Part shown: positions 1 through 3,000 of the stretch, piece by piece | How the letters are laid out: the number at the start of each line of letters is the position of its first letter | Position numbering within the stretch: position 1 is the stretch's first letter | Virus record (IMG/VR): IMGVR_UViG_2872185964_000001 | DNA from: a virus | Lineage: Duplodnaviria > Heunggongvirae > Uroviricota > Caudoviricetes | Direction: 5' to 3' (one strand) | Length of the DNA stretch: 11,611 bases | Program-made: the position numbers

Positions 1-3000
1 TCATTTAACGTCCCCTGTGTTACCTTTCGTTTTATCACGAGCAATAAGCTGACTGGCAATAACCATCACCAGCGACAGCACCAGTAATATGGTTGCCAGC
101 GCGTTAACTTCCGGCGATACGCCGACTTTGACCATCGAATAAATTTTTAACGGCAGAATTTCATAACTTGGTCCGGTGACGAACGAAGAAACTACCACAT
201 CGTCCATCGACAGGGTAAAGCTTAACACCCAGCCCGCTGCCACCGCTGGCATTGCCAGTGGCAGTATGATTTTTCGCAGAATGGTAAATTCGCTGGCACC
301 GAGATCTTTCGCCGCTTCCAGCATCCGCACGTCAAAACCTTTCAGGCGCGAATACACCGTCACCACCACAAATGGCAGGCAGAAGGTGATATGCGAGAAC
401 AGCAGCGACCAGAAGCCAAGCTGAATACCCAGCAGCATAAACAGCACCAGCAGCGAAATTGCCATCACGATATCTGGTGACATCATTACCACAAACAGCA
501 TTCCGCTAACGAACGGCTTACCGCGAAAGCGATAACGGTACAGCGCAACTGCCGTCAGTGAACCGATAAGCGTAGCAAACGTCGCCGAAAACACCGCCAT
601 TGTTAGTGAATGCTGCGCTGCCTGTAACAGGCTGTCGTTGTTCATCAGCAGGCTATACCATTTGGTGGTAAAACCCTGCCAGTTGATGCCAAAGCGCGAG
701 CTGTTAAAGGAGTTCACAATCAAAATAATGATTGGGATATACAGGTACGCGTAGATAGCGGTCATAAAACCGCCGCGAAGCAGTCGACCGATCATTCGAG
801 TTCCACCTTCTTATTCATAAGGTGGAGCACTTTCAGGATTTTGAATTTATTCAATTTTTTCCTTTCTCCAAAATCTCTCCAAAACGTTTCCCCAAAACTA
901 GGCCACGCATTTTACAACACTTTTTTCCTGAGATGGTGACGGATATTCCATATGGTGTTTGTCAAATAACCAGCTTAACCCATTCCTGACCTCGAGTATC
1001 GTTATAGCGATCGGTGGTTGCCTGGACTTTATGTCCTAGTAATGTTTTTGTATCGATACCCTGTGCACGGTACAGCCGTTCTGATAGAGAGCGTTGTTCA
1101 TGAAATGTTGGCGGAGTTTTTCCTGCTGGTGGAATTATCCCAGCCAGATCCCGTGCTTTGGCAAAGTAGTCGCTCAGGTTGTCTTTACTCATCGGCTTCG
1201 GTTGTTTCTGGTGCCGACTATGGATTAGATATGGACTTAATATTCTGTCTCGGCACCCATCAATAACTTCTTTTAACGTTATCCCAATGGCATCACAGCG
1301 TAGTGTAAGCGGTAACGCCAGACGCATTCCGGTTTTTCCCTGGGTGATATGCAAGTGTTCGTTCCACACATCTGAAAAACGCATGTGGCAAATGTCATCA
1401 CGGCGCTGACCAGTAACAATCGCAAGAAGCATTGCGTTACGGATAAAGTGTTTTTCAGGCGTTGCATTGTAAATTTTTTGCCAGTCTTCCATGGTGAGCC
1501 TGGCTCTGGGTACTTTAGGGATCGGTTTACGGGTAGCCTCCGGAGGATTCCATCCAGGAGGAACTTCCCCTGCATGCTGTGCTTCTTTATAAATATCAAC
1601 CCATAATCCACGATTTACTCTCGCTGTGCTGACCATGTCTTTATCCAGCCACTCATCCAGTATTAATGCAAAGTCTCTTACTTCCAGTTCTTTCAATGGG
1701 TGGTTTCCCAGACGGGAAACCAGGTATGCAGCCATTCGAGTTTTTTCTTTGTGAGTTGTAGCTGCAATATCTCCATTTTTCAGTCGCGTGTCCTGTATTT
1801 TCAGATATCGATCAACCCATGCCTTTAATCTGATACCCCGACGTTTTGTTGCTGACGGACTTTCATCAATTTTGCGCATGAAATATTCAGCTTCTGCTGC
1901 AGCTATTCGCTGATTGGCTGTGGAAGCGATTTTTTCTGCCTTACCTTTGTCTGTTCCGAGTCCGTGAAATTTTCCAGTCACAGGATTTTTATACTGGTAG
2001 TAAACTCTGCCAGTTCTGCGATCAAACTTTTCGTAAAGACCGGCTACGTCAGTGCTGTTTTTTTGTGGCCTCGGTGACATGAGTTAAAATCTCCTTCAGT
2101 GCATCATCATCGCCAGTATGAATTTCCGGCGCAATTCCCGTTTCACCAGGCCCAACAAATACTGCTCGGCGATCTATCAGCCAACGCCCACGAATTTTTT
2201 GTGGTCTTGGAACGATGTATCCTAGTTTTCCGTATTTCACCAGGGTAGTGTTTGTTATTGGGAGACTGAACCGTTTTGGTTTCCACTCGTCGAGCGGGTA
2301 ATGCTGCCAACTTACTGATTTAGTGTATGATGGTGATTTTAAGGTGCTTGCGTGGTTTCCATTTCCATCAGATGTCCTTCCTGCTCCGCTACTGAAGGCG
2401 TGGTGCGTAACGGCAAAAGCACTGCCGGACATCAGCGCTATCTCTGCTCTCATTGCCGTAAAACATGGCAACTACAGTTCACTTACACCGCCTCTCAGCC
2501 CGGTACGCACCAGAAAATCATTGATATGGCCATGAATGGCGTCGGATGTCGCGCCAGTGCACGCATTATGGGCGTTGGCCTCAACACGGTTTTACGTCAC
2601 TTAAAAAACTCAGGCCGCAGTCGGTAACCTCGCGCATACAACCGGGCAGTGATGTGATTGTCTGCGCTGAAATGGACGAACAGTGGGGCTACGTCGGTGC
2701 TAAATCACGTCAGCGCTGGCTGTTTTACGCGTATGACAGGATACGGAGGACGGTTGCGGCGCACGTCTTCGGTGAACGCACTCTGGCCACACTGGAGCGT
2801 CTTCTGAGCCTGCTGTCGGCCTTTGAGGTCGTGGTATGGATGACGGATGGCTGGCCGCTGTATGAATCACGCCTGAAGGGAAAGCTGCACGTTATCAGCA
2901 AGCGTTACACTCAGCGCATTGAGCGACATAATCTGAATCTGAGACAACATCTGGCAAGGCTGGGACGGAAGTCACTGTCGTTCTCAAAATCGGTGGAGCT

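What the first reader, a model, noticed from the sequence alone, without database searches (positions are those of the whole stretch)
792..961. Integration in the 3' end of potB: displaced potB terminus kept in-frame next to potC, with phased repeats in the adjacent arm
The minus-strand frame just upstream of potC still encodes …NKKVELE* with the ATGA stop/start overlap, while the body of potB is absent. This is the signature of a prophage that inserted into the potB 3' end and presumably supplies a replacement 3' end at its far junction. potC has therefore lost its operon context and would depend on read-through from int or on a phage-borne promoter. The 860-900 segment has three phased CCAAAA-containing direct repeats that are candidate arm-type Int binding sites.
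Basis: partly seen in the sequence, partly recalled or inferred. Interest (0 to 1): 0.4.

Follow-up and report, generated by a model that had tools for sequence, protein, structure and literature searches.

The report
Prophage attL junction in potB
This is the int-side attachment junction (attL) of a lambda-like prophage inserted in the last codons of the polyamine-transporter gene potB, a common and already described insertion site in E. coli, so the finding is correct but ordinary.

Summary
Window 792-817 is the native end of potB (…NKKVELE*, ATGA overlap with potC). Similarity to an unoccupied potB-potC junction stops at 817, and a lambda-family integrase gene starts 145 bp further on (962-2080, minus strand). 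A four-way comparison shows classic site-specific integration at a 14-bp core, CACCTTCTTATTCA (804-817). It uses unoccupied attB, this junction, the far junction of intact prophages in E. coli, and contiguous attP in viral contigs. At the far junction the phage gives potB a new end (…NKKVSELDD*). A core polymorphism that differs between the two junctions of one lysogen places strand exchange in TTATTCA (811-817). The three TCYCCAAAA repeats (865-873, 876-884, 889-897) are the only copies in the window. They recur in the other attP arm, sit about as far from the crossover as lambda P'1-P'3, and recur as TTCCCCAAAAC x3 beside a 44%-identical icd-integrating integrase. They are very probably arm-type Int sites. 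About 26-30% of complete E. coli genomes carry this junction, and potB/potC is a published prophage site. In this window the prophage is a dead remnant: xis is cut by IS1 and the early region is deleted. Whether potC is still transcribed is untested.

The parts
1..795 (-). potC, complete (264 aa), spermidine/putrescine ABC permease
   Evidence: 100% identical to BL21 PotC; annotated potC in matching E. coli records
792..817 (-). Displaced native 3' end of potB: 7 codons plus stop, with the stop overlapping the potC start (ATGA)
   Evidence: Contiguous with potC as in unoccupied sites; similarity to native potB ends at 817
804..817 (.). 14-bp common core CACCTTCTTATTCA, shared by attB, attL, attR and attP
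   Evidence: Pattern found at all four kinds of site
811..817 (.). Inferred 7-bp overlap (strand-exchange) region TTATTCA
   Evidence: In E. coli strain 127, attL has T and attR has C at the position equivalent to 810. All five attP copies seen have C. Position 810 therefore stays with the left flank, and exchange happened to its right
802..826 (.). Inverted repeat TCCACCTT / AAGGTGGA around a 9-nt spacer: candidate core-type Int sites B (802-810) and C' (818-826)
   Evidence: the repeat finder I1. The C' arm is polymorphic in relatives (AAGGCGGG), so only part of the repeat is conserved
818..961 (.). Phage P' arm of the attachment site
   Evidence: Identical or nearly identical to the int-proximal arm of contiguous attP in viral contigs L006, L007, L013 and L088
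865..873 (+). Candidate arm-type Int site P'1 (TCTCCAAAA), centre +55 from the overlap centre
876..884 (+). Candidate arm-type Int site P'2 (TCTCCAAAA), centre +66
889..897 (+). Candidate arm-type Int site P'3 (TCCCCAAAA), centre +79
962..2080 (-). int: lambda-family tyrosine integrase, 372 aa, apparently intact
   Evidence: Pfam Arm-DNA-bind_1 (1.6e-20) and Phage_integrase (1.5e-18). Matches lambda Int structure 1z1b at E 5.5e-54, with the R-K-H-R-H-Y residues aligned and conserved
2049..2296 (-). xis (excisionase) lacking its first 8 codons and start codon
   Evidence: 81 of 81 residues identical to residues 9-89 of the excisionase of FDAARGOS_536; similarity is broken at 2296/2297 by an IS1 end
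2297..4400 (+). IS1 with a nested IS2 (about 3050-4376). It replaces about 16.7 kb of prophage early region
   Evidence: IS1 and IS2 transposase domains; IS ends read; similarity to the intact prophage resumes at 4401

Best explanation
Window 792-961 is the attL (B-O-P') junction of a lambda-like prophage that integrated by Int-mediated site-specific recombination into the last codons of potB.

Shown: the bacterial half runs from potC through the native potB tail to the 14-bp core, CACCTTCTTATTCA (804-817). The phage half (818-961) is the int-proximal P' arm. The free phage attP carries the same core between a P arm and this P' arm. After integration the body of potB is fused at the far junction (attR) to a phage-supplied tail (...NKKVSELDD*). 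The native tail and potC-potD are left on the int side, separated from the potA promoter by the whole prophage.

Inferred: strand exchange occurs in the 7-bp TTATTCA (811-817), flanked by core-type sites (CACCTTY on the left, TAAGGYGG on the right). The three TCYCCAAAA nonamers at +55, +66 and +79 are the P'1-P'3 arm-type sites bound by the N-terminal arm-binding domain of Int. Two further copies lie at about -131 and -145 in the P arm, next to an IHF-consensus site.

In this genome the module is a fossil. xis is decapitated by IS1, most of the prophage is deleted, and excision is no longer possible. potC keeps its own Shine-Dalgarno sequence (GAAGGTGGA) and start codon. Its transcription must now come from the int side, either by read-through or from a weak internal promoter. 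This last step is inferred and was not tested.
For: - **Core at all four site types.** Unoccupied attB (BL21, strain 1283), attL (window, FDAARGOS_536, strain 127), attR (FDAARGOS_536, strain 127) and contiguous attP in viral contigs all share the core with the expected flank exchange.
- **Replacement tail.** PotB ends ...NKKVSELDD* and is 287 aa in lysogens, against 285 aa with ...NKKVELE* in the native gene.
- **Integrase.** Int has Arm-DNA-bind_1 and catalytic domains. It aligns to the lambda Int structures with all catalytic residues conserved.
- **Crossover position.** Strain 127 has T in attL and C in attR at core position 7, and all attP copies have C.
- **Arm motif.** There are 3 of 3 window matches at 865-897 (expected 0.26). 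It is nearly absent from 40-50 kb of flanking prophage and chromosome apart from the att arms. Copies lie in the P arm at L007 4972, with a 1-mismatch copy at 4958. All three nonamers are invariant in 8 distinct P' arm variants. Site centres are +55/+66/+79, against +57.5/+67.5/+78.5 counted on the lambda sequence. TTCCCCAAAAC x3 sits in the same place next to a 44%-identical icd-type integrase.
- **Frequency.** The occupied junction is present in 1396-1624 of 5426 complete E. coli genomes.
- **Literature.** The potB/potC locus is a named prophage site: Phi-CFT073-potB (PMC4632033, PMC3573123), PP_potB in O157:H7 (PMC9997748), O145:H28 (PMC7067040) and Stx phages at potC (PMC8065619).
Against: - The far junction and the potB body of the source genome (CP026872.1) could not be retrieved, so the matching core at the opposite boundary is shown only in relatives.
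- No protein-DNA binding data exist here for the nonamers.
- The P' arms are so similar to each other that invariance of the nonamers is weak evidence on its own: about 12 variable columns in about 145.
- B' (GCAGACG) matches the other core-type half-sites poorly.
- No IHF consensus with up to 1 mismatch was found in the P' arm.
- The overlap assignment rests on one polymorphic position and assumes no mismatch repair of a heteroduplex.
Confidence: 0.9

Rival explanations
1. The CCAAAA repeats are not Int arm-type sites. They could be an A-tract bending element or binding sites for another factor (Xis, Fis, IHF or a host protein), or a remnant with no function.
For: There are no binding data. 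The motif is A-rich and spaced roughly one helical turn apart (11 and 13 nt), as intrinsically bent DNA can be. No IHF consensus was found in the P' arm, so something else may bend it.
Against: The full 9-mer, not just an A-tract, recurs in the opposite arm of attP and next to a 44%-identical integrase with a different core. It is almost absent elsewhere in more than 150 kb examined. Its number, tandem arrangement and distance from the crossover match lambda P'1-P'3. In lambda the Xis and Fis sites lie in the P arm, not the P' arm (established knowledge).
Confidence: 0.08
2. The junction was produced by IS-mediated or homologous rearrangement rather than by Int, and the potB tail is coincidental or phage-borne mimicry.
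For: The window is riddled with IS1, IS2 and IS600, and large parts of the prophage are deleted.
Against: The junction is base-for-base the same as in more than 1300 E. coli genomes that carry intact prophages and no IS there. The break falls exactly at the core shared with attP. The nearest IS end is 1.5 kb away, at 2297.
Confidence: 0.02
3. On the functional consequence: potC-potD are effectively silent downstream of the prophage, and the PotABCD transporter is lost or decaying in this genome, rather than being kept expressed by read-through.
For: No consensus sigma-70 promoter lies on the minus strand between int and potC. Only weak candidates appear in a permissive scan, the best being an extended -10 TGGGATAAT at 1142-1134 inside int. 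The upstream phage promoters have been removed by the IS1-associated deletion. A junction hairpin of 8 bp (-12.3 kcal/mol, z = -2.0) covers the potC Shine-Dalgarno sequence. potD carries a 1-bp deletion in the source assembly.
Against: PotC is 100% conserved, and potC/potD are annotated as intact in the lysogens examined. The potD frameshift may be an assembly error, because essential lolE, nagK and mfd are also split in the same 10 kb. The hairpin arm is polymorphic in relatives. No terminator lies between int and potC.
Confidence: 0.3

Closest known systems
Bacteriophage lambda attL (B-O-P') with arm-type sites P'1-P'3
   Same: Int of the same family, aligned over almost its full length to the lambda Int structure with catalytic residues conserved. 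It has the same arm-binding domain. int-xis lie directly next to the P' arm. A short common core carries a 7-bp exchange region. Three tandem arm-type repeats sit at +55/+66/+79, against +57.5/+67.5/+78.5 in lambda. Two further copies and an IHF-consensus site lie far out in the P arm.
   Different: The arm motif is different (TCYCCAAAA, against lambda's AGTCACTAT type). All copies have the same orientation, whereas lambda P2 is inverted. attB lies inside a gene rather than between gal and bio. About 65 bp of extra arm lies between P'3 and the int stop, whereas lambda P'3 overlaps the int stop.
Phi-CFT073-potB and the PP_potB prophages of E. coli (O157:H7, O145:H28, ExPEC)
   Same: Same insertion locus as named in the literature (PMC4632033, PMC3573123, PMC9997748, PMC7067040). 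The same junction sequence occurs in 26-30% of complete E. coli genomes.
   Different: The copy here is a heavily IS-eroded remnant. xis is truncated, about 16.7 kb of early region is missing, and the late region is replaced by other elements. None of the complete E. coli genomes searched covers 80% or more of the window; the best covers 52%.
icd-integrating lambdoid phages (phage 21 / e14 type)
   Same: They integrate in the 3' end of a gene and bring a substitute 3' end. The Int is 44% identical, with three tandem TTCCCCAAAAC repeats between the core and the int stop.
   Different: The core and target gene differ (icd against potB). The replaced segment in icd is much longer than the 3 to 5 residue swap here. 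That these records are of the phage 21 / e14 type is my own knowledge and was not tested.

Membership tests
Lambda-type (arm-binding tyrosine integrase) attachment site | Adjacent tyrosine recombinase with the catalytic R-K-H-R-H-Y set | tested here: met
   Alignment to lambda Int 1z1b (E 5.5e-54). The motifs VTGQR, GKTG, FHEQRS, LLGHK and RY align with lambda R212, K235, H308/R311, H333 and Y342.
Lambda-type (arm-binding tyrosine integrase) attachment site | N-terminal arm-type DNA-binding domain in Int | tested here: met
   Pfam PF09003 Arm-DNA-bind_1, residues 1-64, E 1.6e-20.
Lambda-type (arm-binding tyrosine integrase) attachment site | The same short core at attB, attP and both prophage junctions, with reciprocal exchange of flanks | tested here: met
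Lambda-type (arm-binding tyrosine integrase) attachment site | 6-8 bp overlap region flanked by inverted core-type sites | tested here: inconclusive
   The T/C polymorphism segregates with the left flank in strain 127, which places exchange in TTATTCA. An inverted repeat, TCCACCTT/AAGGTGGA, flanks it. However, C' varies, B' matches poorly, and the cleavage sites have not been mapped.
Lambda-type (arm-binding tyrosine integrase) attachment site | Repeated arm-type sites on both arms, distant from the core | tested here: met
   Met at sequence level only: three copies in P' and one exact plus one 1-mismatch copy in P. Binding by Int cannot be tested with these tools.
Lambda-type (arm-binding tyrosine integrase) attachment site | Accessory bending-protein (IHF) sites in the arms | tested here: inconclusive
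   The one exact WATCAANNNNTTR match in 13.7 kb of L007 lies in the P arm, at -112. None with up to 1 mismatch lies in the P' arm.
Lambda-type (arm-binding tyrosine integrase) attachment site | Excisionase gene next to int | tested here: met
   xis overlaps the int start; here it lacks its first 8 codons.
potB-locus lambdoid prophages (Phi-potB / PP_potB) | Inserted between the potB body and potC, in the potB 3' end | tested here: met
   locus named in PMC4632033 and PMC9997748.
potB-locus lambdoid prophages (Phi-potB / PP_potB) | Lambdoid gene content behind int-xis | tested here: inconclusive
   Only fragments remain in the window: a DNA methylase, the tRNA triplet and a SASA esterase pseudogene. 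The intact relatives are lambdoid.

The most novel reading that the evidence does not exclude
Splitting potABCD may have physiological consequences. In about a quarter of E. coli, and in this IS-rich strain, potC-potD would be transcribed only from the prophage side: low in repressed lysogens, and with 'escape synthesis' on induction. A junction-created hairpin over the potC ribosome-binding site could damp translation further. Spermidine uptake would then become coupled to the prophage's state. Separately, the shared TCYCCAAAA arm motif in potB-type and icd-type integrases would mark a subfamily that keeps its arm specificity while changing core specificity.
Probability: 0.12. Interest if true: 0.35.

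Novelty: already known. Interest (0 to 1): 0.1.

Why it matters
The finding mainly serves as correct annotation. It fixes the exact left boundary of a very common E. coli/Shigella-type prophage site and gives its core, probable crossover and arm sites. It also shows that in this genome the element is an immobile remnant. The only open biological question is whether polyamine uptake (PotABCD) is altered in the many strains whose operon is split by this prophage. That can be tested easily, but it would not overturn anything.

Tried and rejected
- **Whole-window search.** A megablast of the whole window against complete E. coli genomes found no record covering 80% or more.
- **Source genome.** An exact-pattern scan of genome contigs for the xis/IS1 junction found nothing. 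The source was instead identified by exact look-up of Int as CP026872.1. The 10-kb flank did not reach potB. A second look-up with the AlpA-like protein returned other genomes only.
- **Phage collection.** It holds only two close matches, both prophage predictions that include host potC/potD, so they are not attP. attP was instead rebuilt from the two junctions and then found intact in viral contigs.
- **First choice for a two-junction comparison.** O157:H7 PV15-279 was unusable, because potA/potB/pepT/roxA are absent between the prophage and phoQ. Strain 127 was used instead.
- **Lambda comparison.** 'Lambda_2E9' turned out to be an icd-integrating phage, not lambda. This was useful by accident. 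True lambda was then read from NC_001416.
- **Signal scans.** Promoter and terminator scans of the int-potC interval gave nothing at consensus level and only weak hits when relaxed. An IHF scan of the P' arm was negative.
- **RNA.** Rfam found nothing in 792-961. The 196-nt intergenic RNA as a whole folds no better than shuffled sequence (z = 0.19).
- **Coding potential.** The in-frame extension of the potB frame into the phage arm (39 codons) has no plausible start and was rejected as a gene.
- **Literature.** Searches found no study of potC/potD expression in potB lysogens and none describing the arm sites.

Full report
**What is in the sequence**

The minus strand of 1-795 encodes a complete PotC, 100% identical to that of E. 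coli BL21. Immediately upstream on that strand, 818-792 reads ATG AAT AAG AAG GTG GAA CTC GAA TGA (MNKKVELE*). The TGA overlaps the potC ATG. Native PotB ends ...VYWRASRLLNKKVELE*. The window therefore keeps the last seven codons and the stop of potB, and nothing more of the gene.

Megablast against 5,426 complete E. coli genomes shows that unoccupied potB-potC junctions match the window only up to 817. By contrast, 1,396 genomes match right through into the adjacent integrase gene. With a shorter junction probe the count is 1,624.

Next to the junction lies a 372-aa integrase (962-2080, minus strand). It has the lambda Arm DNA-binding domain and the tyrosine-recombinase catalytic domain. It aligns with the lambda Int crystal structures (1z1b, E 5.5e-54), and R, K, H, R, H and Y are all in place.

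**The four-way att comparison**

The four site types read as follows (core in capitals):

| Site | Source | Sequence |
|---|---|---|
| attB (unoccupied) | BL21 | ...gagttcCACCTTTTTATTCAgcagacgag... |
| attB (unoccupied) | strain 1283 | same flanks, with C instead of T at core position 7 |
| attL | window | ...gagttcCACCTTCTTATTCAtaaggtggagc... |
| attR | FDAARGOS_536, about 50 kb away | ...aattcgctCACCTTCTTATTCAgcagacgag... |

FDAARGOS_536 has a junction 100% identical to the window. Its potB is 287 aa and ends ...NKKVSELDD*.

I joined the two phage flanks into a predicted attP (AATTCGCTCACCTTCTTATTCATAAGGTGGAGCAC). This sequence occurs exactly in two IMG/VR viral contigs, lying between tail-fibre/methyltransferase genes and int. 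Two more attP copies and two more attL copies came from integrase-based retrieval.

This is the reciprocal flank exchange expected of Int-mediated integration at a 14-bp core (window 804-817). By the lambda convention the window holds attL (B-O-P').

**Where the strands were exchanged**

In E. coli strain 127 the two junctions of one prophage differ at core position 7. attL has CACCTT-T-TTATTCA, the bacterial allele. attR has CACCTT-C-TTATTCA, the allele of all five attP copies seen. That position, window 810, therefore travels with the left flank. Exchange must have occurred to its right, within TTATTCA (811-817).

A 7-bp overlap is what lambda-family integrases use (established knowledge). 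The overlap is bracketed by an inverted repeat, TCCACCTT/AAGGTGGA (802-809 / 819-826). I read these as the B and C' core-type sites. This part is inference: C' is polymorphic among relatives (AAGGCGGG), and B' resembles the others only loosely.

**The CCAAAA repeats**

TCYCCAAAA occurs three times in the window, all at 865-897. The expectation is 0.26, and no shuffle in 200 gave three. Start-to-start spacing is 11 and 13 nt.

In contiguous attP the same nonamer appears once more exactly (L007 4972). A one-mismatch copy lies 14 nt upstream (4958). Both are far out in the other arm, at about -131 and -145 from the overlap. The only exact IHF-consensus match in that 13.7-kb contig lies next to them.

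A looser form of the motif, T[CT][CT]CCAAAA, is almost confined to att arms in the roughly 190 kb of related loci scanned.

Measured from the overlap centre, the three P' copies lie at +55, +66 and +79. The lambda P'1-P'3 sites, counted on NC_001416, lie at +57.5, +67.5 and +78.5.

A lambdoid phage that integrates in icd, and the O157:H7 prophage at icd, have an Int 44% identical to this one. By my count of that alignment, about half of the first 60 residues, which contain the arm-binding domain, are identical. Both carry TTCCCCAAAAC three times, with spacing 12 and 13, between their core and the int stop.

The nonamers are invariant in eight distinct P' arm variants, while substitutions fall just beside them. 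That test has little power because the arms differ so little. Together these results make the arm-type reading very likely. Binding itself is untested.

**State of the element in this genome**

The window is a 100% match to NCBI CP026872.1, a 4.71-Mb chromosome. No complete E. coli genome covers 80% or more of the window. The IS load suggests a Shigella-like lineage, but the tools did not name the organism.

xis has lost its first eight codons to an IS1 end at 2297. That IS1 carries a nested IS2 and abuts a phage DNA-methylase gene, so about 16.7 kb of early region is missing. Further right are the phage tRNA triplet, a broken esterase gene, IS600, part of a satellite-like element, and another IS1.

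Int looks intact, but without Xis and most of the prophage this attL is a fossil. The far junction of this genome was beyond reach.

**Consequence for potC**

It is a fact of the sequence that potC-potD are cut off from potA-potB. I found no consensus terminator and no consensus sigma-70 promoter on the minus strand between int and potC. A relaxed scan gives only weak candidates, the best being an extended -10 inside int at 1142-1134.

potC keeps its Shine-Dalgarno sequence. In RNA, however, that sequence can pair with the phage-derived C' arm (8 bp, -12.3 kcal/mol, z = -2.0). That arm varies among relatives.

potD carries a 1-bp deletion in the source assembly. lolE (essential), nagK and mfd are split in the same stretch, so assembly error is a serious possibility. 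I found no published expression data.

**Comparison with what is known, and verdict**

The potB/potC locus is a recognised prophage site:
- Phi-CFT073-potB (PMC4632033, PMC3573123)
- PP_potB in O157:H7 clade 8 (PMC9997748)
- the potB site in O145:H28 (PMC7067040)
- potC as an Stx-phage insertion site (PMC8065619)

Replacing the 3' end of a target gene is a familiar strategy among temperate phages. Examples from my own knowledge are phages that integrate in icd and in tRNA genes; Rac prophage likewise alters the end of TtcA (PMC4632033).

The thing itself is an ordinary, already-described kind of junction. The fine anatomy worked out here (core, overlap, arm motif shared with icd-type integrases) is a modest annotation gain, not a discovery.

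Noticed in passing
window 2297-4400: An IS1 whose right end is itself interrupted by an IS2 (about 3050-4376, flanked by a 5-bp ATCAG duplication). The composite joins xis codon 9 to a DNA-methylase gene cut 41 nt into its CDS, so about 16.7 kb of prophage early region is deleted.
   Followed up: partly
window 5459-5975: A phage tRNA triplet: CAT anticodon (called Met by ARAGORN but annotated tRNA-Ile in the RefSeq relative), Arg-TCG and Arg-TCT. It is followed by a full-length match to Rfam sRNA STnc100 (139 bits).
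   Followed up: no
window 6198-7584: A SASA-family carbohydrate esterase gene is spread over three reading frames. This is either a pseudogene or assembly indels. It is only about 74% identical in DNA to the copy in the intact relative.
   Followed up: no
window 8822-10735 and L097-L102: The Bro-N and AlpA genes belong to a satellite-like element with a P4-type integrase, AlpA, Bro-N, D5 primase, SSB, its own capsid and decoration proteins, and a small terminase. In other genomes it sits inside the portal gene of a lambdoid prophage, and it resembles capsid-forming PICIs. Here it is truncated by IS600 on one side and IS1 on the other.
   Followed up: partly
L095 300-342; L093 12151-12184: icd-integrating lambdoid prophages, with an Int 44% identical, carry TTCCCCAAAAC three times between the core and the int stop. 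This is the same arm motif as the potB phage but with a different core and target gene.
   Followed up: partly
L008 12077-13122 (source chromosome, just left of the window): potD is split by a 1-bp deletion in CP026872.1. nagK, lolE and mfd are also split within the next 8 kb, which suggests assembly indel errors rather than, or in addition to, real pseudogenes.
   Followed up: partly
L093 (E. coli O157:H7 PV15-279, 1487-1537 kb): The prophage region that starts at potC ends directly at phoQ. potA, potB, pepT and roxA are missing from the interval examined, and the last phage-like genes resemble the satellite element above.
   Followed up: no
window 852-863 and 918-929: A second direct repeat, CAMTTTTTTCCT, occurs twice in the P' arm 66 nt apart, and is also present in attP copies. 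With only two copies it may be chance.
   Followed up: no
L007 4883-4912 (P arm of attP, not in the window): A 13-bp GC-rich hairpin (CCTCCCCGACCAT/ATAGTCGGGGAGG) lies about 200 bp beyond the core on the side that int transcripts would enter in the free phage. It could be a tI/sib-like element that integration separates from int.
   Followed up: no
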